DNA of 64,000 nucleotides, taken from assembly GCA_007376385.1 (NCBI GenBank), contig VMGC01000001.1:128001-192000 (forward strand). Direction: 5' to 3'. This document shows, one piece after another, positions 13,225 through 38,355 of the stretch. The notes under the pieces are model-generated. The model was given only the letters and a program-made list of their open reading frames with translations. It was not told the DNA's origin and ran no database searches. The number at the start of each line of letters is the position of its first letter. Position 1 is the stretch's first letter. This DNA comes from Parcubacteria group bacterium Gr01-1014_8 (lineage in GTDB: Bacteria; Patescibacteriota; Minisyncoccia; Phycocordibacterales; UBA2100). The position numbers and the translations under genes were made by a program.

Positions 13225-13299
13225 TGGTGCCCTCGGCAGGAATCGAACCTGCATTTCTTCCTTCGCAGGGAAGTGTCCTATCCATTGAACGACGAGAGC
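13225..13299 (-). tRNA. tRNA-Arg, anticodon GCG, with genomically encoded CCA.
   Basis: The reverse-complement fold gives acceptor GCTCTCG/CGAGGGC and D-arm GTTC-AATGGATA-GGAC. The anticodon stem-loop is CTTCC-CTGCGAA-GGAAG and the T-arm is GCAGG-TTCGATT-CCTGC. Discriminator A is followed by CCA. It is the only tRNA here with encoded CCA. Confidence 0.65.
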
Positions 13300-21318: not shown

Positions 21319-21627
21319 ATGCCATACAAATATCGAAAAGATTTGTACGCTGCTCAAAAGAGGCATCGTATACGAGTACGAGAAAAACTGCTCGGATTTC
21401 TTAGTACGAAACAGTGCATCGATTGCGGCGAGAAAGATCCAATTGTTTTGGATTTTGATCATATTGATAGAGCGAGTAAATCCAGAAATGTTGCGGGATT
21501 TTTATCGGGGCATTGGTCTTGGGAGTCTGTTCTAACAGAGATTCGTAAATGCGAAATCAGATGCGCCAATTGTCACCGGCGAAAAACCTATCATCAATTC
21601 GGTTCTTTTGGTAGAACTATCAAGTAG
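21319..21627 (+). CDS. HNH homing endonuclease, small and free-standing.
   Basis: CIDCGEKD...LDFDHIDRASKSRN...CANCHRRK is the HNH zinc-finger nuclease motif. The region is AT-rich. The stop abuts tRNA-Arg at 21627. Confidence 0.75.
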   Translation: MPYKYRKDLYAAQKRHRIRVREKLLGFLSTKQCIDCGEKDPIVLDFDHIDRASKSRNVAGFLSGHWSWESVLTEIRKCEIRCANCHRRKTYHQFGSFGRTIK

Positions 21628-21698
21628 CCCCCGTAGTTTAATGGATAAAACAGCGGACTTCTAAGCCGTTGATCGAGGTTCGATTCCTCGCGGGGGCA
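21627..21698 (+). tRNA. tRNA-Arg, anticodon TCT.
   Basis: The acceptor is GCCCCCG/CGGGGGC and the D-arm is GTTT-AATGGATA-AAAC. The anticodon loop is CTTCTAA. The T-arm is CGAGG-TTCGATT-CCTCG with discriminator A. Confidence 0.8.
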
Positions 21699-21720
21699 AA
21701 AAAATGTATAGTAGGAGTTC

Positions 21721-21793
21721 GGGCGGTTAGCTCAGTTGGTAGAGCAACCCCTTTACACGGGGAAGGTCACAGGTTCGAGTCCTGTATCGCCCA
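21721..21793 (+). tRNA. tRNA-Val, anticodon TAC.
   Basis: The acceptor is GGGCGGT/ATCGCCC and the D-arm is GCTC-AGTTGGTA-GAGC. The anticodon stem-loop is ACCCC-TTTACAC-GGGGA. The T-arm is ACAGG-TTCGAGT-CCTGT with discriminator A. Confidence 0.85.
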
Positions 21794-21960
21794 CAAAATA
21801 GTAAACTATTTTGTGGCGGTAAGTGCGCAAACTGATTTGCGCACGTCAGGACGAGAACGCCGGAGCGATGTCGCGCGAGGACGCGCGACCGCGAGGCGGT
21901 GCCCAGACCGAGGCGAGCGGCGGCGAGCGGAGAGTCGCGGGAGAGTCCTGTATCGCCCAC
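21794..21960 (+). repeat. tRNA-3'-linked conserved element, copy 2 (E2). It ends in an 18-nt duplicate of tRNA-Val positions 57-74.
   Basis: GAGTCCTGTATCGCCCAC occurs at 21777-21794 and again at 21943-21960. The element carries core motifs identical to E1: ACGCCGGAGCGATGT at 21857-21871, ACCGCGAGGCGGTGCCCAGAC at 21888-21908 and AGTCGCGGGAGA at 21933-21944. Confidence 0.6.
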
Positions 21961-22004
21961 TCTGGTTTGATAATGGTCCAGCGGTGTGTTACAGTCCTGG
22001 CCGT

Positions 22005-22451
22005 ATGGTTGCTAATAAAGTCGTTGTTTCTCCAGTCGACATGACCGCGCGAAAGGCGCTTGACGTGCGTCCGGGTGATACCGTGCGCGTGTTCCAAAAG
22101 ATAGAGGAGGAAAAGGGGAAGTACCGTCTTCAAGCGTTTGAAGGGTTGGTGTTGGCGCGAAAACACGGCACTGAAGCTGGCGCGACGTTCACTGTGCGAA
22201 AAGTGACAAGCGGTGTCGGTGTTGAAAAGATATTTCCGCTCTATTCTCCAATGATAGATAAAGTCGAGATAGTAAAGCGTGCTCGAGTGCGCCGTGCGAA
22301 GCTCTATTATATTCGAGACAAAGTTGCTCGCGAAGCGCGCCGACAACTTCGCCGCGCGAAAGTCGTGGTCCCGTTGCAAGGCGAAGTGGTTCTCGACGAT
22401 GCGGCCGAACCTGTCGCTGAAGAAGTTGGAACTCCAGAGAAAAGTGAGTAA
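22005..22451 (+). CDS. rplS: 50S ribosomal protein L19.
   Basis: VRPGDTVRVFQKIEEEKGKYRLQAFEGLVLARKHG...FTVRKVTSGVGVEKIFPLYSP is the L19 signature. The track ORF 21669..22451 has a spurious N-terminal extension across tRNA-Val. The real start is the ATG at 22005 (MVANKVVV). Confidence 0.85.
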   Translation: MVANKVVVSPVDMTARKALDVRPGDTVRVFQKIEEEKGKYRLQAFEGLVLARKHGTEAGATFTVRKVTSGVGVEKIFPLYSPMIDKVEIVKRARVRRAKLYYIRDKVAREARRQLRRAKVVVPLQGEVVLDDAAEPVAEEVGTPEKSE

Positions 22452-22521
22452 TCAGGGGGCCTCTTTTTATTTGTCCACAACTGGTAGACGCTATATACTT
22501 GAGTTATGTTATATTTGTGCG

Positions 22522-23199
22522 ATGGGGAAGCGAGGACCCAAGCCTGGATTCAAAATTACACGTCGTGTCTCAGAGAAATGGACGCCGGAATTAGCATATG
22601 CGATCGGGCTTCTTGCGACAGACGGTTGTCTTGCGCGGCACCAGTCGCTAATTGATCTGACGTCAAAAGATCAGGAGCAATTGAAGAATTTCTCAAAGTG
22701 TATTGGAATTCCACTTTTCATCGGCACGAAATTTGGTAGTCACCATAAGGGCGTATATTACAGAGTTCAATTTAAGAATCTCATCTTCTATAACTTTCTC
22801 CTCTCCGTTGGTCTGACGCCGGCAAAATCGAAAACGATGGGAGCGCTTGGGGTTCCGAAAGAATATTTCTGGGACTTTCTTCGCGGATCTTACGATGGTG
22901 ATGGATGTTCATATTCATATTGGGATCCACGATGGAAATCGAGTTTTATGTTTTACACGAGTTTTGTTTCCGCGAGTCGAGAGCATATTGATTGGTTGCA
23001 AAAAGAGATTTTTGCGCGGCTCAAAATCACTGGGCACATCACGCAGGCTAAAAGAAATATCTTGTACCAACTTAAGTACGCAAAAAGTGATTCCCTGAAG
23101 TTACTGAAAAAAATGTATCACTCGAGTAAAGTTATTTGTCTTTCGCGAAAAAGATTGAAAATAGAGCGAATTTTGAGTACAGTTAGCGAGAAGCTGTAA
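22522..23199 (+). CDS. LAGLIDADG homing endonuclease, double-motif and free-standing.
   Basis: Two LAGLIDADG motifs are present: YAIGLLATDGCL and FLRGSYDGDGCS. The region is AT-rich. The gene ends 10 nt before tRNA-Leu. Confidence 0.75.
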   Translation: MGKRGPKPGFKITRRVSEKWTPELAYAIGLLATDGCLARHQSLIDLTSKDQEQLKNFSKCIGIPLFIGTKFGSHHKGVYYRVQFKNLIFYNFLLSVGLTPAKSKTMGALGVPKEYFWDFLRGSYDGDGCSYSYWDPRWKSSFMFYTSFVSASREHIDWLQKEIFARLKITGHITQAKRNILYQLKYAKSDSLKLLKKMYHSSKVICLSRKRLKIERILSTVSEKL

Positions 23200-23208
23200 A
23201 GCTTTGAT

Positions 23209-23293
23209 GCGCAGGTGGCGAAATTTGGTACACGCACTACCTTGAGGTGGTAGCGCCCTAACGGGCATGGGAGTTCGAGTCTCCCCCTGCGCA
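23209..23293 (+). tRNA. tRNA-Leu, anticodon GAG.
   Basis: The acceptor is GCGCAGG/CCTGCGC and the anticodon stem-loop is CTACC-TTGAGGT-GGTAG. There is a long variable arm. The T-arm is GGGAG-TTCGAGT-CTCCC with discriminator A. Confidence 0.85.
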
Positions 23294-23476
23294 CAGAATT
23301 GGACTCTTTGAGTATTTTTCTCGAATCTGTCGTTGTTTTGCGGCGTTTTTTGGCGGTTCTAACATCGTCTAATCCACAGGAGGTTGAAAATTGCAACTTT
23401 TTGAAAATAGCCCCAACTATAAAAGTGTTTGGGCGGTTCTAACTGTCTTGGCAGATTTCCTATAAGATATCTAAGT

Positions 23477-31883: not shown

Positions 31884-33557
31884 ATGGATCCAGTTTTAAA
31901 CGTTCGAGAGAAGTTAGTTGATGCTCTGAAAGACATCGGCGTTTCGATAACAGTTACTGATATCACGCTGGGGCTCACCGATAATCTGTCGTTTGGCGAC
32001 TACGCGACGAGCGTTGCTCTCGCATATGCGAAAGAGGCGGGGGTAAAACCGCGCGAGCTTGCAGAAAAACTTGTTGCATCGATGGGATCAGTTGAGGGAA
32101 TCTCAAAGATTGATATTGCGGGGCCGGGGTTCATAAATTTTACTCTCGACCCTCGATTCGTATACAAGTCGCTCGAAGCGGGTCTTATGCAGGAAGAGCA
32201 ATGGGGGAGCGGACTTTCGCGAAAAGGAAAGAAGATGATGATCGAATACACTGACCCGAACCCGTTCAAGGAATTTCACATTGGCCACCTTGTTCCGAAT
32301 ACGCTTGGAGAAAGCATCTCGCGATTGCTAATGTTTTCCGGGGCGGAGGTAAAGCGCGCGAACTATCAGGGCGATGTCGGTATCCATGTCGCAAAGTCCC
32401 TTTTCATTCAGTTGGAGAAGGGTATTACAGACCCGACAATCGAGGACCTTGCAAGCGCCTATCCTGAGGGCTCGCGCCGATACGATGAGGACCCTGAAGC
32501 GAAAAAAGCCATTGATGAGCTGAACAAAAAGATTTACGACAAGAGCGACGAGAAGATCAATGCGTTGTACGCAAAGGGAAGAGCGCTCTCTCTCGCGCAC
32601 TTTGAGGAGTTATACAAAGTTCTTGGAACAACATTCGATTACTATTTTTTCGAAAGCGAGACGGGACCGATCGGCGTGAAGGAAGTGCGGGCGCATCCGG
32701 ACGTGTTCGAAGAAAGCGAAGGCGCCGTTGTGTTCAAGGGGGAGAAGTACGGCTTGCATACGCGTGTATTCATCAACAAGCTTGGGCTCCCGACGTACGA
32801 AGCAAAAGAACTCGGGCTCGCGCGAATGAAGGCAGAGAAATATCAATTCGATCTTACGCTCACAATAACCGCAAATGAGCAGGCGGAATACTTCAAGGTG
32901 GTCATGAAAGCCATGGAACTTTCGCTTCCTGACCTTCGCGGCAAACTCGCGTTCAAGACAAATGGTTTGCTTCGTTTTGCTGACGGAAAAATGTCATCAC
33001 GCCTTGGCAATATCATTACCGGGGAGGAGTTGATAGGCGACCTGAAAGAGAAGGCCATGGAACGCGCATCAAAGAGCAGGGCTACGGACGCGCAAAAACT
33101 GGCTGGTGAAGTTGCGGTTGGTGCCATCAAATATCAAATACTCAAGCAAGGGTTTGGGAAAGATATTATTTTCGACAGAGAACGGGCGCTCTCGCTAGAG
33201 GGCGATTCCGGTCCATACCTTCAGTACGCACATGCCCGAACGAGTGCAATTGTTGAAAAAGCGAGGGGGACGGGCATCGTCGTGAAATTCGATACTGCGA
33301 GCGGTGCGAGCGAACTCGTACGCCGCTTATACCGATTCAACGAGATTGTTATGCGCGCGACAGACGAGCTTGAGCCGCATCTTGTTGCCACCTACCTCAT
33401 CAATCTTGCGGCGGCATTCAATAGCTGGTACGCGAATGAGCAGATACTCGATGGAACACTTGGTGCGTCTCACAAAGTTGCGATAACTGATATCACGAGG
33501 CAGACGCTCAAAAATGGACTTTGGCTCCTCGGTATTCCGGCGCCGGAAAAGATGTGA
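31884..33557 (+). CDS. argS: Arginyl-tRNA synthetase.
   Basis: The class I HIGH motif is present (FHIGHLVPN). The N-terminal additional domain and DALR-like C-terminus are also present. Confidence 0.9.
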   Translation: MDPVLNVREKLVDALKDIGVSITVTDITLGLTDNLSFGDYATSVALAYAKEAGVKPRELAEKLVASMGSVEGISKIDIAGPGFINFTLDPRFVYKSLEAGLMQEEQWGSGLSRKGKKMMIEYTDPNPFKEFHIGHLVPNTLGESISRLLMFSGAEVKRANYQGDVGIHVAKSLFIQLEKGITDPTIEDLASAYPEGSRRYDEDPEAKKAIDELNKKIYDKSDEKINALYAKGRALSLAHFEELYKVLGTTFDYYFFESETGPIGVKEVRAHPDVFEESEGAVVFKGEKYGLHTRVFINKLGLPTYEAKELGLARMKAEKYQFDLTLTITANEQAEYFKVVMKAMELSLPDLRGKLAFKTNGLLRFADGKMSSRLGNIITGEELIGDLKEKAMERASKSRATDAQKLAGEVAVGAIKYQILKQGFGKDIIFDRERALSLEGDSGPYLQYAHARTSAIVEKARGTGIVVKFDTASGASELVRRLYRFNEIVMRATDELEPHLVATYLINLAAAFNSWYANEQILDGTLGASHKVAITDITRQTLKNGLWLLGIPAPEKM

Positions 33558-33595: not shown

Positions 33596-36500
33596 ATGGC
33601 CGAACAAAACTCACAAGAAAAGAGCGAGACTGCAAAACGAGAAGAGGAGGTGTTGAAGTTTTGGAAAGAGAACACTATCTTCGAGAAATCGCTCAAAAAG
33701 AGAGCTCCGAAAGGCGAGTTTGTTTTTTATGATGGACCTCCGTTTGCGACTGGCTTGCCGCATACGGGTTCGCTCCTTTCATCCATCATCAAAGATGTCG
33801 TGCCGCGCTATAAAACAATGCGGGGATACGTGGTGCAGAGGCGCTGGGGATGGGATTGCCATGGGCTTCCTATCGAGAGCCTTATCGAAAAACGTCTGAA
33901 CTTAAAGACGAAGAAAGACATCCTTGATATCGGCATCGACACATTCAACGAGGCTGCACGGGCGAGTGTGATGGAATTTGAGCACGAGTGGGAAAAGTAT
34001 GTCGACCGTGTCGGCCGATGGGTCGACTTCAAGAATTCCTACAAAACGATGGATAACTCGTACATCGAGAGCGTATGGTGGGCTTTGAAGCAGTTGTATG
34101 AAAAATCGCTGTTGTATGAAGGCAATAAAGTACTCATGTATTGTCCTCACTGCGAGACGCCGCTTGCGAAAGCGGAGATAGCGATGGACCATACGTACAA
34201 AGACATTACAGAAGAGGCGGTCACTGTCCGGTTCAAGATAAAACGTCCGTCGCGCTACGGACTTCCCGAGAATACTCACTTCCTTGCGTGGACGACAACA
34301 CCGTGGACATTGCCGGGCAACGTCGGTCTTGCAGTCGGTCCTGGCATTAGTTATGTTCTTGTGCCGGAATCCGGCGGGATGGCCATCGTTGCCAAGGATC
34401 GCCTCGACATCTTGAAAAAAAGTGCACGTCCGCGGGTAAGCGTCGACATGGGCAGGGAATATAAAGGTTCGGAGCTTGTCGGGATGGAATATGAGCCTTT
34501 GTATGACGTTGTTTCGGTCATCAGACATGGGGGCAATAAACACGTTGTACTCCCTGCGGATTTTGTGTCGACGGAAGAGGGAACGGGCGTCGTGCACACG
34601 GCAGTGATGTACGGAGAAGATGACTTCGCACTGGGGCAAAAAGAAAATCTGCCCAAAGTGCAACTACTCAATCCGAATGGCACATACAACAAAGAAGCGC
34701 CAGCATTTTTACAAGGAAAATATATCAAGGAAGCAGAGAGAGATATTAAACGCGATCTCGAATCGCGCGGACTCCTTTTTGAACGCGAGAATCATACGCA
34801 CTCATATCCGCATTGCTATCGATGCGGGACGCCATTAATTTACAATGCTGTCGCGTCGTGGTTCATCAATATTCAGAAAGTGAAGGACAAAATGCTTTCA
34901 GAGAACGAAAAAGTACAGTGGGTACCGGAACATCTGAAGCACGGGCGCTTCAAGAATATCGTGGAGAATGCGCCAGATTGGACAATTTCGCGCAATCGCT
35001 TTTGGGCGTCGCCGCTTCCTATCTGGAAAGAGAAGAAAGGGAATCGCGTGATGGTTGTCGGTTCACTCGACGAGATAAAGAAAAAGTCGAAGAAAAGCGG
35101 TAATAAATATTTTGTGATGCGGCATGCGTGGTCAACCGGGAATGAGAATGGCACGCTGAGTTCAGACAAGGATGCGGACATCGGTCTGACAGAGAAAGGG
35201 ATCGCGGACGCTCGCGCATCCCTGCGAGCATTCGGAACGAAAGTGGATATCATCTATACGTCGTCCTTTAAACGAACCCGCGAGACTGCAGATATAGCAG
35301 CGGAGGTGCTTGGCGTGCCAAAGGAACATATCAAATCTGATGATAGATTAGGAGAATGCAATTTTGGTCCATACAGCGGGAAGACGCTTGAGGAGTACCA
35401 CGCGGCATTCCCGGAAAAGGCAGAGCGATTCAGTAAAGGCCCTGAAGGTGGGGAGACGTACGTAGAAATTCGTCGACGTATGATGTCGGTTCTGTCCGAA
35501 TTGGAAAAAAGTGAGAAAGGCAAAAATATCCTTATCATCTCGCACGGCACGCCGCTCTGGCTTCTCTGTGCATCTGCGAGAGGGCTCTCTCGCGAAGAGG
35601 CGCTCTCGACTCGCGAGACGGATTATCCGAAACAAAGTGTTATCACCGAACTCTCGTTCGTACCGCTTCCCTATAACGCCGACTATGAATTGGACCTTCA
35701 TCGACCGTATACGGATTCATTGACGCTCCTCGATGAAGAGGGGCGAGAATACGAACGAATTCCGGAGGTCGTGGACTGCTGGGTCGAGTCCGGCTCCATG
35801 CCCTTTGCGGAACAGCACTATCCATTCGAGAATAAATCGGTATTTGAAAAGAGAGCGCCGGGCGATTTTATCGCTGAATATATAGCTCAAACGAGGACGT
35901 GGTTCTACTATATGCACGCGATGGGCGTTCTCCTATTCGGAAGGCTCGCATTCCGAAATGTTGTTTCGACGGGAACCATTCTTGCGGCAGATTCATCTAA
36001 AATGTCGAAGTCGAAGGGAAACTACACGGACCCTTTGGTTGTTATGGACCGCTATGGCGCGGATGCGTTGCGCTTCTATTTGATGGGAAGCGTCGTGATG
36101 CAGGCAGAGGATCTGAATTTTCGCGATGAGGATGTTCGCGATACGCATAATCGCGTTATGGGGCTTTTGTGGAATACATATAAATTCTATGAGCTCTACA
36201 AAAAAGAATACGAAGGAAAAGCTTTTGCGAAAAGAAGCACGAATTTGTTGGACCAATGGGTCATCGCACGGCTTAATGAAACTGTGCGCACAGTTACAAA
36301 TGCGCTTGATGCGTTCAATATGCCGCCTGCAGCACGGGCCATACGAGATTTCGTTGAAGATTATTCCACGTGGTATGTGCGCCGCTCCAGGGAGCGCGTG
36401 AAGGGTTCTGATAAGGCGGATAAACAATTCGCGCTTGCGACGCAAAGAGAAGTACTGCTCGATGTTGCGAAAATGCTCGCGCCCATTGCTCCTTTCATAG

Positions 36501-37093
36501 CCGAGAGCGTGTACAGAGGTGTAGGAGGAGCGCTTGAAAGCGTGCACTTGGAAGAATGGCCGAGTGGGATTTCAAGAGGATTTTTCTCTCGATTATTTGG
36601 CCGCGACAAGAGCAAAGAATCTTTAGCAAACATGGCAGCGGTGAGAGCTGCCGTATCACGTGCACTTGAAGCTAGAGAGAGGGCACGTATGAAAATACGC
36701 CAGCCGCTCTCGGCATTGATCCTTAACGGTGAACGCTTCCCCATCAAGGAAAGCGGGCTCCTTGATATCATCAAAGAAGAAGTGAACGTGAAGCGTGTTG
36801 ACGTTGGGGACATAACGGACGACGTATGGTTGGATACTGCGCTCACTCCTGAATTGAAGCGAGAAGGCCTCATTCGCGAGGTCTCGAGAACGGGACAGGC
36901 GGAGAGGAAGCTTTTGAAGCTGAGTCCGGAAGACAGGCTTTTCAGGGTCATCGTGCGCGGAACAAACGATACGATCCTCGCTGTTAAGGAACACGAATCA
37001 TACTTGCGGGAATCACTGAAAACCGATGTTTTGATGACCGAAGTAGATGAGTCTGGCAAAGAGCCTATGCGCGTTTCCATCGAGAAAAGATGA
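33596..37093 (+). CDS. ileS: Isoleucyl-tRNA synthetase (type 2), 1165 aa. It carries an internal histidine-phosphatase-like domain of about 200 aa.
   Basis: HIGH-region motifs are PFATGLPHTGS and WDCHGLP. KMSKS is present (KMSKSKGN). The insert at about 35095-35690 (VMRHAWSTGNENG, IYTSSFKRTRETAD, IISHGTPLWLL) lies between IPIWKEKKGNRVMVVGSLDEI and DLHRPYTD. Confidence 0.9.
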   Translation: MAEQNSQEKSETAKREEEVLKFWKENTIFEKSLKKRAPKGEFVFYDGPPFATGLPHTGSLLSSIIKDVVPRYKTMRGYVVQRRWGWDCHGLPIESLIEKRLNLKTKKDILDIGIDTFNEAARASVMEFEHEWEKYVDRVGRWVDFKNSYKTMDNSYIESVWWALKQLYEKSLLYEGNKVLMYCPHCETPLAKAEIAMDHTYKDITEEAVTVRFKIKRPSRYGLPENTHFLAWTTTPWTLPGNVGLAVGPGISYVLVPESGGMAIVAKDRLDILKKSARPRVSVDMGREYKGSELVGMEYEPLYDVVSVIRHGGNKHVVLPADFVSTEEGTGVVHTAVMYGEDDFALGQKENLPKVQLLNPNGTYNKEAPAFLQGKYIKEAERDIKRDLESRGLLFERENHTHSYPHCYRCGTPLIYNAVASWFINIQKVKDKMLSENEKVQWVPEHLKHGRFKNIVENAPDWTISRNRFWASPLPIWKEKKGNRVMVVGSLDEIKKKSKKSGNKYFVMRHAWSTGNENGTLSSDKDADIGLTEKGIADARASLRAFGTKVDIIYTSSFKRTRETADIAAEVLGVPKEHIKSDDRLGECNFGPYSGKTLEEYHAAFPEKAERFSKGPEGGETYVEIRRRMMSVLSELEKSEKGKNILIISHGTPLWLLCASARGLSREEALSTRETDYPKQSVITELSFVPLPYNADYELDLHRPYTDSLTLLDEEGREYERIPEVVDCWVESGSMPFAEQHYPFENKSVFEKRAPGDFIAEYIAQTRTWFYYMHAMGVLLFGRLAFRNVVSTGTILAADSSKMSKSKGNYTDPLVVMDRYGADALRFYLMGSVVMQAEDLNFRDEDVRDTHNRVMGLLWNTYKFYELYKKEYEGKAFAKRSTNLLDQWVIARLNETVRTVTNALDAFNMPPAARAIRDFVEDYSTWYVRRSRERVKGSDKADKQFALATQREVLLDVAKMLAPIAPFIAESVYRGVGGALESVHLEEWPSGISRGFFSRLFGRDKSKESLANMAAVRAAVSRALEARERARMKIRQPLSALILNGERFPIKESGLLDIIKEEVNVKRVDVGDITDDVWLDTALTPELKREGLIREVSRTGQAERKLLKLSPEDRLFRVIVRGTNDTILAVKEHESYLRESLKTDVLMTEVDESGKEPMRVSIEKR

Positions 37094-37094
37094 C

Positions 37095-37670
37095 ATGTAC
37101 GCAAAGTATCAAACAGAGGCGGTTGTCTTAGGGAGCCGGAATATGAACGAAGCGGACAAGATAGTGGCGCTCTTTACGCGCGACTTTGGTCTCGTGCAGG
37201 CGAAGGCCACGGCTGTGCGTTCGGAGGGTTCGAAGATGCGCTACGCTCTGCAGAATTTCTCTCGCGCGCAAGTCGCGCTTATTAAGGGAGCGAGTGGCTG
37301 GCGAGTGGCTGGCGCTGTATCCATTTCCAATACGCCTGATGCTGGTGGCGAAGCACTCGCGGCACTCGCACGCGTCTCGCAGCTTGTGCTGCGGCTCATC
37401 AAAGGGGAGGAGCGAAACGAATATCTGTTCGCAGCACTCGCGGATGCGCATGCGGCGCTTGTGCAAAAACCCTGCGACGCTTGGGCAACCATTGAATTGA
37501 TGTGCGTTGCCCGCATCCTGTATTCGCTCGGATACTTGTCTTTTGAGGCGTTCGAGACCGCTCTCTTCTCGCACACTGCATACGTAGGGGAGCATTTGAA
37601 GGAAGCTGAAAAACTTAGGGAAAAGCTTTTGGCGTCGGTTAATCGAGCAATGGGGGAGACGCATCTTTAA
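37095..37670 (+). CDS. recO: DNA repair protein RecO.
   Basis: MYAKYQTEAVVLGSRNMNEADKIVALFTRDFGLV forms the OB fold. A helical C-terminus follows. The start is the ATG at 37095, just after the ileS stop. Confidence 0.7.
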   Translation: MYAKYQTEAVVLGSRNMNEADKIVALFTRDFGLVQAKATAVRSEGSKMRYALQNFSRAQVALIKGASGWRVAGAVSISNTPDAGGEALAALARVSQLVLRLIKGEERNEYLFAALADAHAALVQKPCDAWATIELMCVARILYSLGYLSFEAFETALFSHTAYVGEHLKEAEKLREKLLASVNRAMGETHL

Positions 37671-37683
37671 TTAAGAATTACGT

Positions 37684-38355
37684 ATGAAATTTGCTACTGT
37701 TGTTTTTGATTTCGACAGTACTCTCGTTGATGTAGAGACGCTTGAGTCAGTGAGTGAGATTGCACTGCAAGGAAGAAAAGATTTCGCTGCCGTGACGGCG
37801 CAGATACGCACCATTACAGAACGCGGCTTGCAGGGAACGATGGCGTTTGATGAATCGCTCGCTCGCCGCATGGCGCTCATTGCCCCGCGCAGAGAGGATG
37901 TTCAGAGAGTCGCGGGCGGGCTTGTCGAGCACATTACGCCGTCAGTGTTGCAGCACAGGGATTTTTTTGCGCACAACGCAGAATGTGTATTCATCGTATC
38001 TGGCGGGTTTGATGAATTGATATTTCCGGTATCAGACACGCTGGGTATTCTTAGGAAGAATGTATTTGCAAATGCCTTTGTGTACGATGAACGCGGTGTT
38101 GCGGTCGGCGTCGACACAACCCGCCCGCTCTCACAGCATCTCGGTAAGGTGAAAGCGTTGAGAGCGGAGAATTTAAAGAGACCGCTTGCGATGGTCGGCG
38201 ATGGTTACACAGATTATGAAGTCAAAGCGCATGGCGAGGCGGATGTCTTTATTGCGTATGTTGAGCATACGCATCGCGACGCAGTCGTGGAACATGCGGA
38301 TAATGTCGCGCTGTCATTCAGCGATGTGCGTCGGTATTTGGAAATGATGTTGTGA
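37684..38355 (+). CDS. HAD-superfamily phosphatase, phosphoserine phosphatase (SerB)-like.
   Basis: VVFDFDSTLVD is HAD motif I. VGDGYTDYE is the GDGxxD motif. Confidence 0.65.
   Translation: MKFATVVFDFDSTLVDVETLESVSEIALQGRKDFAAVTAQIRTITERGLQGTMAFDESLARRMALIAPRREDVQRVAGGLVEHITPSVLQHRDFFAHNAECVFIVSGGFDELIFPVSDTLGILRKNVFANAFVYDERGVAVGVDTTRPLSQHLGKVKALRAENLKRPLAMVGDGYTDYEVKAHGEADVFIAYVEHTHRDAVVEHADNVALSFSDVRRYLEMML

What the first reader, a model, noticed from the sequence alone, without database searches (positions are those of the whole stretch)
35095..35690. Isoleucyl-tRNA synthetase carrying an inserted histidine-phosphatase (phosphoglycerate-mutase-like) domain
In type-2 IleRS, an ~30-residue linker containing a short vigS..EL.e segment normally separates the ...IPIW motif from the DLHRxYID motif. 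Here about 200 residues intervene. They carry hallmarks of the histidine phosphatase superfamily: MRHAWSTGNENG corresponds to the RHG catalytic-His motif with G replaced by A, YTSSFKRTRETA corresponds to the SPL-RA-QTA motif, and IISHGTPLWLL supplies the second His. The reading frame is continuous, and the flanking IleRS sequence is intact, including KMSKS.

A phosphatase or mutase-like module embedded in an aminoacyl-tRNA synthetase is unusual. It might act on a nucleotide or aminoacyl-adenylate-related substrate, or it may be a degenerate structural insert.
Basis: partly seen in the sequence, partly recalled or inferred. Interest (0 to 1): 0.55.

Follow-up and report, generated by a model that had tools for sequence, protein, structure and literature searches.

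The report
Active phosphatase domain nested inside IleRS
The isoleucyl-tRNA synthetase of this Parcubacteria genome has an apparently active histidine-phosphatase enzyme spliced into one of its surface loops; relatives carry the same phosphatase either fused this way or as a separate gene directly upstream of ileS, so it looks like a dedicated but uncharacterised partner of the synthetase.

Summary
The 1165-aa type-2 IleRS ORF (33596-37093, +) carries an in-frame 198-aa insert (aa 497-694, nt 35084-35677). The insert is a branch-1 histidine phosphatase domain (Pfam PF00300, E 8e-35).

It is not degenerate. In 81 orthologous inserts of only 37-53% identity, R509, H510, R560 and H650 are invariant, and N516 and E587 are kept in 80/81. 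AlphaFold folds the insert at pLDDT 95. Its nearest structures are small phosphatases (PspA, GpgP, PhoE, CobC). The mutase, CobC and PspA equivalog models all score below cut-off.

The fusion is widespread in Patescibacteria: 80 species genomes verified here, and every one of the 120 best database hits.

New here: in eight of eight lineages tested, the closest stand-alone relatives lie 1-56 bp upstream of an insert-less ileS. No insert-bearing locus has a second copy nearby. Gracilibacteria-type IleRS carry further hydrolase inserts (NUDIX, serine hydrolase, a second His_Phos) at other sites.

A 2013 genome paper already mentioned, in one sentence, an SR1 IleRS interrupted by PGM-like domains. 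The architecture is therefore not new, but it has never been characterised.

Best reading: an active phosphomonoesterase that partners IleRS. Its substrate is unknown.

The parts
33596..37093 (+). Complete ileS ORF (1165 aa), a type-2 IleRS with a nested phosphatase domain
   Evidence: It is 100% identical to P0073, 'isoleucyl-tRNA synthetase [Parcubacteria group bacterium Gr01-1014_8]'.
33596..35083 (+). N-terminal IleRS part (aa 1-496): first Rossmann half, CP1 editing domain and CP core, up to the first half of the former Zn knuckle
   Evidence: Aligns to 8C8U residues 3-476. The editing motifs TTTPWT (aa 233-238) and GTGVVH..GEDD (aa 329-343) are intact.
33761..33772 (+). HIGH signature, here H56-T-G-S59 (non-canonical fourth position)
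35084..35677 (+). Inserted histidine-phosphatase (His_Phos_1) domain, aa 497-694. The Pfam match covers aa 506-670, nt 35111-35605.
   Evidence: Pfam E 8e-35. AF2 pLDDT is 91-97 in the full-length context and 95.3 for the domain alone. Foldseek best matches are PspA, GpgP and PhoE.
35120..35128 (+). R509-H510-A511, the 'RHG' motif; H510 is the predicted phospho-accepting nucleophile
   Evidence: R and H are kept in 81/81 inserts. The motif aligns to R8-H9-A10 of PspA.
35141..35143 (+). N516, phosphate-pocket Asn
   Evidence: Kept in 80/81 inserts.
35273..35275 (+). R560, second phosphate-binding Arg (KRTRETA motif)
   Evidence: Kept in 81/81 inserts.
35354..35356 (+). E587, predicted general acid (RLGECNFG motif)
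   Evidence: Glu in 80/81 inserts and Asp in the remaining one.
35543..35545 (+). H650, second catalytic His (ISHGT motif)
   Evidence: Kept in 81/81 inserts.
35678..37093 (+). C-terminal IleRS part (aa 695-1165): DLHRPY motif, second Rossmann half, KMSKS (aa 802-806, nt 35999-36013), anticodon-binding and C-terminal domains
   Evidence: Aligns to 8C8U residues 482-885. Pfam Anticodon_1 and DUF5915. Motif coordinates.
31884..33557 (+). argS (ArgRS), the conserved upstream neighbour. Only 38 bp separate it from ileS, so there is no room for a stand-alone phosphatase gene.
   Evidence: The argS-[His_Phos]-ileS-recO synteny is seen.
37047..37670 (+). recO-like gene, the conserved downstream neighbour

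Best explanation
The insert is a folded, catalytically competent branch-1 histidine phosphatase. It resembles the small-cap phosphatases PhoE, PspA, CobC and GpgP, and is not a phosphoglycerate mutase.

It is nested at the tip of the (here Cys-less) Zn-knuckle hairpin that links the connective-polypeptide core to the second Rossmann half of a type-2 IleRS. The IleRS around it looks fully functional, with an intact editing site and KMSKS.

Predicted chemistry follows the family mechanism, inferred from the conserved residues. H510 attacks a phosphomonoester to form a phospho-histidine intermediate. R509, N516, R560 and H650 hold the phosphoryl group. E587 protonates the leaving group. Water then releases phosphate.

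The domain is a dedicated partner of IleRS rather than a chance passenger. In sister lineages the same phosphatase is a separate gene immediately upstream of an insert-less ileS. In Paceibacteria it has been built into the synthetase with conserved junctions, and in Gracilibacteria-type IleRS it also occurs at a second site.

The least certain step is the substrate. My best guess is a phosphorylated species linked to the IleRS cycle, such as a nucleotide-like phosphoester or a phosphate blocking the tRNA acceptor end, rather than a glycolytic intermediate.

What is shown: the insertion, the fold, conservation of the catalytic residues, and the complementary fused versus adjacent-gene pattern. 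What is inferred: catalytic activity, physical and functional coupling, and the substrate class.
For: Identity of the domain:
- Pfam His_Phos_1, E 8e-35.
- AF2 pLDDT 95.3 and pTM 0.92 for the domain alone, and 91-97 in the full-length model.
- Foldseek top hits are PspA 4IJ6, GpgP 6S2Q/4QIH, PhoE 1H2E, HFP 9MMH and CobC, with TM about 0.75-0.8.

Purifying selection on catalysis:
- R509, H510, R560, H650, E620 and R628 are kept in 81/81 inserts, and N516 and E587 in 80/81, at only 37-53% overall identity.

Distribution:
- In 79 of 80 species-representative loci the insert is in frame with both IleRS halves; the exception, L062, changes frame in the C-terminal half.
- All 120 best database clusters carry PF00300.

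Coupling to IleRS:
- Eight of eight stand-alone closest relatives (P0016, P0021, P0023, P0025, P0027, P0030, P0031, P0348) lie 1-56 bp upstream of an insert-less ileS. One of these loci has no argS nearby.
- None of the 80 insert-bearing loci has a second His_Phos gene within the up to 6 kb of flank held on each side.
- Stand-alone and inserted forms make one clade, separate from other His_Phos proteins.
- A second, catalytically intact His_Phos domain sits at a different IleRS site in Gracilibacteria-type enzymes.
- The junction motifs KKSGN and PxPHN are conserved, which suggests fixed docking.
- ArgRS, MetRS and a class-II aaRS in the same window carry no insert.
Against: - No biochemical data exist and no substrate can be read from the sequence. 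A screen for family-specific residues found nothing diagnostic, and the net charge of the domain varies widely.
- The insertion sites in different lineages are scattered over IleRS. That fits tethering better than precise active-site juxtaposition, and is also compatible with neutral fusion.
- Conserved adjacency can be incidental; ribF-ileS in E. coli is an example from my own knowledge.
- I could not obtain model coordinates, so the distance from H510 to the IleRS active site or the tRNA path is unknown.
- One relative is fused to Sua5/TsaC instead of IleRS, with no ileS within the 3.7-kb contig.
- The NJ tree does not resolve whether the stand-alone or the inserted state is ancestral.
Confidence: 0.55

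Rival explanations
1. Neutral or 'parking' fusion of an unrelated housekeeping metabolic enzyme. On this reading the domain is the cell's small-molecule phosphatase or mutase: the phosphoglycerate mutase reported as undetected in some Parcubacteria, a sugar-bisphosphatase, or a phosphoserine phosphatase. It happened to be encoded next to ileS and became trapped in a permissive loop during genome streamlining, with no functional link to aminoacylation.
For: - Jaffe et al. [quoted passage not shown] A domain hidden inside a gene annotated as ileS would escape gene-level annotation.
- The short monomeric S. pombe dPGM 1FZT is among the fold hits, with TM 0.80.
- Insertion sites differ between lineages, so position seems not to matter.
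- Small-population symbionts fix neutral fusions easily (general knowledge).
Against: - The dPGM models fail: TIGR01258 scores 30 bits against a cut-off of 81.7, and archaeal dPGM NF038349 scores 72 against 225.
- The positions I recall as dPGM substrate ligands (Tyr92 and Lys100, E. coli numbering) are F590 and L598 here and are variable in the family.
- The link to ileS survives in 8/8 stand-alone cases, including one locus whose other neighbours differ.
- The domain entered IleRS at two different sites at least.
- The junctions are conserved.
- The RAAC4 OD1 genome, which carries the insert (L020), was described as having an EMP pathway running through to pyruvate.
Confidence: 0.25
2. In-cis countermeasure against agents that target IleRS or its tRNA. 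On this reading the phosphatase, together with the NUDIX and serine-hydrolase modules seen in other Patescibacteria IleRS, destroys a phosphorylated inhibitor, or removes a toxin-installed phosphate or pyrophosphate from tRNA(Ile) or from the KMSKS loop.
For: - Several hydrolase classes, all with intact catalytic motifs, are embedded in IleRS of different lineages.
- Parcubacteria encode MccH-like enzymes that neutralise an aaRS-targeting peptide-nucleotide antibiotic.
- IleRS is a classic natural-antibiotic target, and HipA-type kinases and toxSAS enzymes are known to phosphorylate class I aaRS or tRNA 3' ends (general knowledge).
Against: - Resistance or antitoxin functions are usually patchy, whereas this module is near-universal in a large clade.
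- No PADLOC defence family matches the phosphatase.
- None of the natural IleRS inhibitors I know of carries a phosphomonoester (my knowledge).
- No toxin gene was seen next to these loci.
Confidence: 0.1
3. Degenerate, purely structural insert: a former enzyme now serving only as a spacer or tRNA-binding surface.
For: The window copy has RHA instead of RHG and W512 where most relatives have Glu. The host Zn knuckle has lost its four Cys, so the insert might substitute structurally for it.
Against: - All catalytic residues are invariant across 81 sequences of about 42% mean identity.
- RHA is the native motif of the active enzyme PspA.
- Some insert-bearing IleRS keep the Zn ligands.
Confidence: 0.03
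4. Assembly or gene-calling artefact, such as a chimeric contig or a read-through of two genes.
For: The genome is a metagenome-assembled genome. Many database relatives are fragments.
Against: - The same architecture is in frame in 79 of 80 independent assemblies; L062 changes frame in the C-terminal half.
- The domain lies in the middle of the gene, with IleRS sequence on both sides.
- There is no compositional break.
- The fragments are explained by short contigs, by frameshifts, or by in-frame UGA codons read as stops. On the one contig examined (L089) all five in-frame stops are UGA at Gly-like positions, which fits code 25.
Confidence: 0.01

Closest known systems
Small-cap branch-1 histidine phosphatases: Hydrogenobacter thermophilus PspA (4IJ5/4IJ6), Geobacillus PhoE/YhfR (1H2E), mycobacterial GpgP Rv2419c (4PZ9/4QIH), CobC alpha-ribazole phosphatase (6E4B), riboflavin-pathway HFP (9MMH)
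   Same: Same fold (TM 0.73-0.80), same size of about 190-210 aa, and the same R-H...N...R...E...H catalytic constellation. PspA even shares the RHA variant.
   Different: Those enzymes are free-standing and have defined substrates. This domain shares only 22-28% identity with them and scores below every NCBIfam equivalog cut-off. It is nested inside an aaRS, or encoded directly upstream of one.
[quoted passage not shown] 2013, mBio, PMC3812714)
   Same: The same phenomenon in the same superphylum. Contig L089, read with UGA as Gly, has a His_Phos domain at the same site as the window protein.
   Different: The window protein has a single His_Phos domain, no NUDIX and no second site. The paper gives one descriptive sentence, with no analysis of catalytic residues, distribution, stand-alone counterparts or function.
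Type-2 (eukaryote/archaea-like, mupirocin-tolerant) IleRS, e.g. Priestia megaterium IleRS2 (8C8U) and Thermus thermophilus IleRS (1ILE)
   Same: The host enzyme aligns end to end with these, E 2e-207 by sequence and E about 1e-73 by Foldseek. It has an intact editing site and KMSKS.
   Different: A 198-aa insert lies between 8C8U residues 476 and 482. The Zn-knuckle cysteines are lost. HIGH reads HTGS.
ProRS INS editing domain versus free-standing YbaK/ProX (analogy from general knowledge)
   Same: A hydrolytic accessory module that is inserted into the synthetase in some lineages and encoded as a separate protein in others.
   Different: INS and YbaK deacylate mischarged tRNA and belong to a different fold. 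No editing role is shown for the phosphatase, and the CP1 editing site of this IleRS is intact.
Rv2228c-type bifunctional RNase HI / CobC-like acid phosphatase (NCBIfam NF005567)
   Same: A branch-1 histidine phosphatase fused to a nucleic-acid enzyme. It is the second-best NCBIfam hit of the insert, E 2e-21.
   Different: That is a terminal fusion, not a nested domain, and the partner enzyme differs. The score is far below cut-off (77 against 326).
NCBIfam NF040702 'isoleucine--tRNA ligase, N-acetyltransferase domain-containing'
   Same: Another IleRS lineage that carries an extra catalytic domain.
   Different: The extra domain is a GNAT at a different position. The window protein scores 298 bits against a cut-off of 1999.

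Membership tests
Histidine phosphatase superfamily, branch 1 (Pfam PF00300) | Profile match above the curated gathering score | tested here: met
   120.7 bits against 21.7, E 8e-35, aa 506-670.
Histidine phosphatase superfamily, branch 1 (Pfam PF00300) | RHG-type motif with the nucleophilic His | tested here: met
   R509-H510-A511. It aligns with R8-H9-A10 of PspA, and H9 is the residue mutated in PDB 4IJ6. R and H are kept in 81/81 orthologues.
Histidine phosphatase superfamily, branch 1 (Pfam PF00300) | Second Arg, second His and acidic proton donor completing the phosphate pocket | tested here: met
   R560 in 81/81, H650 in 81/81, and E587 in 80/81 with Asp in the remaining one.
Histidine phosphatase superfamily, branch 1 (Pfam PF00300) | Alpha/beta fold of the family | tested here: met
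   AF2 pLDDT 95.3. Foldseek to PspA, GpgP and PhoE gives prob 1.00 and TM 0.73-0.80.
Histidine phosphatase superfamily, branch 1 (Pfam PF00300) | Phosphatase activity via a phospho-histidine intermediate | not testable with these tools
   Needs enzymology.
Cofactor-dependent phosphoglycerate mutase (dPGM; TIGR01258, NF038349 and the PRK equivalogs) | Score above the equivalog or subfamily cut-off | tested here: not met
   TIGR01258 scores 30.0 against 81.7. NF038349 scores 71.6 against 225. All gpmA PRK models fall below their cut-offs.
Cofactor-dependent phosphoglycerate mutase (dPGM) | Conserved ligands for the distal phosphate and carboxylate (Tyr92, Lys100, Arg116/117 in E. coli numbering, recalled from the literature) | tested here: not met
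   The equivalent positions are F590 and L598 and are variable in the family consensus. The residue mapping rests on my own recollection of dPGM motifs.
CobC alpha-ribazole phosphatase (TIGR03162) and PspA phosphoserine phosphatase (NF045917) | Score above the equivalog cut-off | tested here: not met
   TIGR03162 scores 77.1 against 162.9. NF045917 scores 60.2 against 350.
Isoleucyl-tRNA synthetase (TIGR00392), type 2 | Equivalog score above cut-off, with type-2 enzymes as closest relatives | tested here: met
   825 bits against 621. The best PDB hits are P. megaterium IleRS2 and T. thermophilus IleRS.
Isoleucyl-tRNA synthetase (TIGR00392), type 2 | Class I signatures HIGH and KMSKS, and the CP1 editing motifs | tested here: inconclusive
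   KMSKS (aa 802-806), TTTPWT and GTG.VH..G.DD are intact. HIGH is HTGS, with Ser at the fourth position. Whether this affects catalysis is unknown.
CPR IleRS interrupted by hydrolase domains (Kantor et al. 2013 description of SR1/ACD80) | PGM-like (His_Phos) domain in frame inside IleRS | tested here: met
   Same site as in the code-25 contig L089.
CPR IleRS interrupted by hydrolase domains (Kantor et al. 2013 description of SR1/ACD80) | NUDIX domain and a second PGM-like domain | tested here: not met
   Pfam finds only one PF00300 and no PF00293 in the window protein. Both occur in Gracilibacteria-type relatives.
IleRS with GNAT domain (NF040702) | Score above cut-off | tested here: not met
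   298 bits against 1999.

The most novel reading that the evidence does not exclude
In Patescibacteria, IleRS serves as a platform for in-cis hydrolases: a histidine phosphatase here, plus NUDIX and a serine hydrolase in Gracilibacteria-type enzymes. Together these would form a new kind of synthetase-associated quality control. They would remove phosphate, pyrophosphate or acyl groups that block the tRNA(Ile) acceptor end, or clear adenylate-derived by-products, before or after aminoacylation. This would be a 'phospho-editing' or substrate-repair function with no counterpart among known aaRS editing domains.
Probability: 0.15. Interest if true: 0.85.

Novelty: new member of a known kind. Interest (0 to 1): 0.55.

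Why it matters
Accessory catalytic domains of aminoacyl-tRNA synthetases are, as far as known, almost all editing deacylases. A conserved, apparently active phosphomonoesterase married to IleRS across a major bacterial radiation points to one of two things. Either there is an unrecognised step coupled to isoleucine charging, such as tRNA-end or nucleotide clean-up, regulation by a phospho-metabolite, or reversal of phosphorylation. Or a 'missing' metabolic enzyme is hidden inside an essential gene, which would alter metabolic reconstructions of these minimal symbionts.

The complementary pattern found here makes the question directly testable. The same protein family occurs either as a separate gene abutting ileS or as a nested domain, which supplies natural 'split' and 'fused' versions for biochemistry.

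Tried and rejected
- Degenerate insert: rejected, because the catalytic residues are invariant.
- Mutase, CobC or PspA identity: no equivalog cut-off is met.
- Artefact: rejected.
- LeuRS fusion suggested by PF13603 on P0028: the sequence aligns as IleRS, so this is a cross-hit.
- Pyrophosphatase idea (IleRS and Sua5 both release PPi): weakened. The RAAC4 OD1 genome carries the insert (L020) and was reported to have a membrane H+/Na+-pyrophosphatase. The idea was not tested further.
- Defence-system membership: no PADLOC hit for the phosphatase.
- Net charge and pI as a hint of RNA binding: values range from pI 4.8 to 9.8, so this is uninformative.
- Family-specific residue screen against outgroup phosphatases: it returned only core and packing positions and nothing diagnostic of substrate.
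- NJ tree to polarise stand-alone versus inserted: the two form one clade, but the direction is unresolved.
- Literature: six searches for IleRS or aaRS combined with histidine phosphatase, PGM or NUDIX found no functional study. The only mention found is the sentence in Kantor 2013.
- Orientation of the domain relative to the IleRS active site: not obtainable, because the tools do not return model coordinates.
Full report
**1. Observation**

The window holds one uninterrupted ORF on the + strand, 33596-37093, of 1165 aa.

- Pfam finds the IleRS modules (tRNA-synt_1 at E 1.9e-126, Anticodon_1, DUF5915). It also finds His_Phos_1 (PF00300) at aa 506-670, with E 8e-35 and 120.7 bits against a gathering score of 21.7.
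- NCBIfam TIGR00392 (ileS) scores 825 bits against a cut-off of 621.
- Against solved structures, aa 3-496 align to residues 3-476 of Priestia megaterium IleRS2 (8C8U), and aa 695-1105 align to residues 482-885.
- So 198 residues (aa 497-694, nt 35084-35677) stand where the reference enzyme has about five.
- GC content does not change across the insert.
- The protein is 100% identical to a public entry, 'isoleucyl-tRNA synthetase [Parcubacteria group bacterium Gr01-1014_8]', on a 407,897-bp contig (taxid seen).

**2. What the insert is**

- H510 aligns with His9 of the Hydrogenobacter phosphoserine phosphatase PspA. PspA has the same 'RHA' variant, and its H9A mutant is PDB entry 4IJ6.
- AlphaFold2 folds the domain with high confidence. 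In the full-length model (mean pLDDT 86.7, pTM 0.76) the insert scores 91-97. Modelled alone it reaches pLDDT 95.3 and pTM 0.92.
- Foldseek places it among the small-cap phosphatases (PspA, GpgP Rv2419c, PhoE, riboflavin-pathway HFP, CobC), with TM 0.73-0.80 at 22-28% identity.
- It does not reach the curated cut-off of any specific NCBIfam family:

| Model | Score (bits) | Cut-off (bits) |
|---|---|---|
| CobC (TIGR03162) | 77 | 163 |
| Archaeal dPGM (NF038349) | 72 | 225 |
| PspA (NF045917) | 60 | 350 |
| dPGM (TIGR01258) | 30 | 82 |

The domain is therefore a member of the superfamily with unassigned specificity, and a mutase is unlikely.

**3. It is under selection as an enzyme**

I extracted the insert from 80 species-representative genomes (L001-L080) and compared them with the window copy.

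- Identity to the window copy is only 37-53% (mean 42%).
- R509, H510, R560, H650, E620 and R628 are kept in 81/81 sequences. N516 and E587 are kept in 80/81.
- The same picture appears in two independent alignments.
- None of the inserts contains a stop codon. In 79 of 80 loci the insert is in the same frame as both IleRS halves; L062 changes frame in the C-terminal half, probably an assembly error.

The 'degenerate structural insert' reading is therefore rejected.

**4. Distribution**

Of these, 583 passed tblastn, and the best 80 all cover the whole insert. Some weaker hits may match only the flanking IleRS motif, so I count 80 as verified.
- Record titles name Kaiser-, Adler-, Wolfe-, Taylor- and Zambryskibacteria, Paceibacterota/Minisyncoccia, and the complete RAAC4_OD1_1 genome.
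- All 120 best protein clusters for the full-length query carry PF00300.
- An exhaustive search of 50%-identity representatives finds 753 clusters at E <= 1e-10. The best 150 are a mixture of proteins of about 190 aa, proteins of 900-1400 aa, and fragments of intermediate length. In the long ones the match starts near residue 500, the position of the window insert. Some proteins contain two to four copies.

**5. Main new result: a complementary stand-alone form**

The closest free-standing relatives of the insert are proteins of 171-197 aa with 32-40% identity to it. I looked up eight of them.

- P0016, P0021, P0023, P0025, P0027, P0030, P0031 and P0348 are each encoded directly upstream of ileS (1-56 bp away). 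For P0016 and P0031 only the N-terminal part of ileS lies on the contig.
- In the six loci with a complete ileS, the IleRS is 938-989 aa with no PF00300 match. The five of these I aligned keep the CxxC...CxxC Zn knuckle at the place of the insert.
- The usual order is argS - His_Phos - ileS - recO. This is exactly the synteny of the window (argS - ileS[insert] - recO).
- In L093 the phosphatase stays 1 bp from ileS although argS is not there. The link is therefore to ileS, not to argS.
- L085 has two tandem copies upstream of ileS.
- Conversely, none of the 80 insert-bearing loci has a second His_Phos gene within the up to 6 kb of flank held on each side.
- In a neighbour-joining tree, inserted and stand-alone forms make one clade apart from other His_Phos proteins. 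The direction of change is not resolved.
- The junctions of the nested form are conserved ('KKSGN' before, 'PxPHN' after), which suggests a fixed docking geometry.

This pattern combines a Rosetta-stone fusion with a conserved operon. It is the classical signature of proteins that work together or bind each other. That is an inference, not a demonstration.

**6. A wider phenomenon, and prior art**

Contig L089 has five in-frame UGA codons at Gly-like positions, which fits genetic code 25. It encodes an IleRS with a His_Phos domain at the window's site and a second, catalytically intact one between the equivalents of aa 868 and 883.

Searching with that sequence shows that Gracilibacteria-, Peregrinibacteria-, Moranbacteria- and Dojkabacteria-labelled IleRS carry several inserts:

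- His_Phos at this second site.
- A NUDIX domain with an intact Nudix box between the equivalents of aa 226 and 229.
- A PF06821 serine hydrolase between 'HRPYID' and 'R[IV]PEV'.

This matches a sentence in Kantor et al. 2013 (mBio, PMC3812714). [quoted passage not shown]

The architecture has therefore been seen before. I found no paper that analyses it.

**7. How it most likely works**

The following are shown:

- A functional-looking type-2 IleRS, with the editing motifs TTTPWT and GTG.VH..G.DD and with KMSKS intact.
- A complete histidine-phosphatase active site.
- Lineage-wide retention.
- Complementary fused and adjacent gene forms.

The following are inferred:

- The domain hydrolyses a phosphomonoester through a phospho-H510 intermediate. 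R509, N516, R560 and H650 bind the phosphoryl group, and E587 acts as the general acid. This is the family mechanism.
- It acts as a dedicated partner of IleRS.

The substrate is unknown. I favour something tied to the IleRS cycle, such as a nucleotide-type phosphoester or a phosphate blocking the tRNA acceptor end. Three observations point that way: the association is specific to IleRS (ArgRS, MetRS and a class-II aaRS in the same window are plain), it has been re-created at two sites, and it co-occurs with NUDIX and esterase modules.

The main rival is a neutral fusion with a housekeeping metabolic enzyme. Jaffe et al. 2020 note PGM as undetected in some Parcubacteria clades. However, the dPGM signatures are missing, and RAAC4 OD1, which has the insert, was described with an EMP pathway running to pyruvate.

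- A pyrophosphatase role is weakened by the membrane pyrophosphatase reported for RAAC4.
- A resistance or antitoxin role is possible, since Parcubacteria do carry MccH-like anti-microcin enzymes. It fits poorly with near-universal conservation and with the absence of PADLOC hits.
- The scattered insertion sites argue for tethering rather than precise channelling.

**8. Verdict**

The object is a new member of a known kind. The combination was noted once, in 2013, in another Patescibacteria lineage. Both component families, type-2 IleRS and the branch-1 histidine phosphatases, are well known.

What is new here is the evidence that the domain is catalytically conserved, very widespread, and interchangeable with a gene that always abuts ileS. 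I rate interest as moderate to fairly high (0.55). No aaRS-linked phosphatase has, to my knowledge, been characterised, and the natural split and fused pairs make the function directly testable.

Noticed in passing
window 33761-33772 (aa 56-59): The class I HIGH signature of this IleRS reads HTGS. Most insert-bearing relatives have HxGS or HxGN and a minority have HxGH. Insert-less neighbours have HYGH or G[IV]HH, the latter resembling the altered GxHH motif of mupirocin-hyper-resistant IleRS2 (recalled from the literature, not checked here).
   Followed up: partly
window 35027-35083 and 35711-35760 (flanks of the insert): All four Cys of the CxxC...CxxC Zn knuckle that flanks the insertion point are lost in the window protein. 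They are retained in insert-less IleRS and in some insert-bearing relatives (P0002, P0007, P0011).
   Followed up: partly
P0234, P0265, P0197, P0207, P0266, P0280 (protein hits); L089 1-1829: Gracilibacteria-type IleRS carry other nested hydrolases: NUDIX at the CP1 boundary, a PF06821 serine hydrolase after HRPYID, and a second His_Phos after KMSKS. In the examples I inspected (P0234 for NUDIX, P0207 for the serine hydrolase, L089 for the second His_Phos) the catalytic motifs look intact. On L089, the one contig I checked, the in-frame UGA codons (which fit code 25) split the gene call into fragments.
   Followed up: partly
L088 977-2140 (P0024): A member of the same phosphatase clade is fused to the C-terminus of a Sua5/YrdC (threonylcarbamoyl-AMP synthase) domain on a 3.7-kb contig with no ileS nearby. 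Like IleRS, Sua5 is an ATP-to-AMP+PPi adenylate-forming enzyme acting on the tRNA pathway.
   Followed up: no
L085 5001-6182: Two tandem stand-alone His_Phos genes lie directly upstream of an insert-less ileS. Both have Asp in place of the Glu general acid. This mirrors the two-domain IleRS of code-25 lineages.
   Followed up: partly
window 37684-38355: A HAD-family hydrolase (phosphatase-like) ORF follows recO directly. It is absent from the otherwise syntenic loci L081 and L083.
   Followed up: no
window 22279-23199 and 21627-23294: An ORF with a weak LAGLIDADG-like match sits inside a cluster of tRNA genes (Arg-TCT, Val-TAC, Leu-GAG).
   Followed up: no
window 13225-13299 (-): ARAGORN calls a tRNA-Arg with anticodon GCG. 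Most bacteria use ACG (read as ICG), as far as I know.
   Followed up: no
L086 937-3022: In one relative, a Cas1 gene and an IS605 OrfB-like gene lie between argS and a frameshifted insert-bearing ileS.
   Followed up: no
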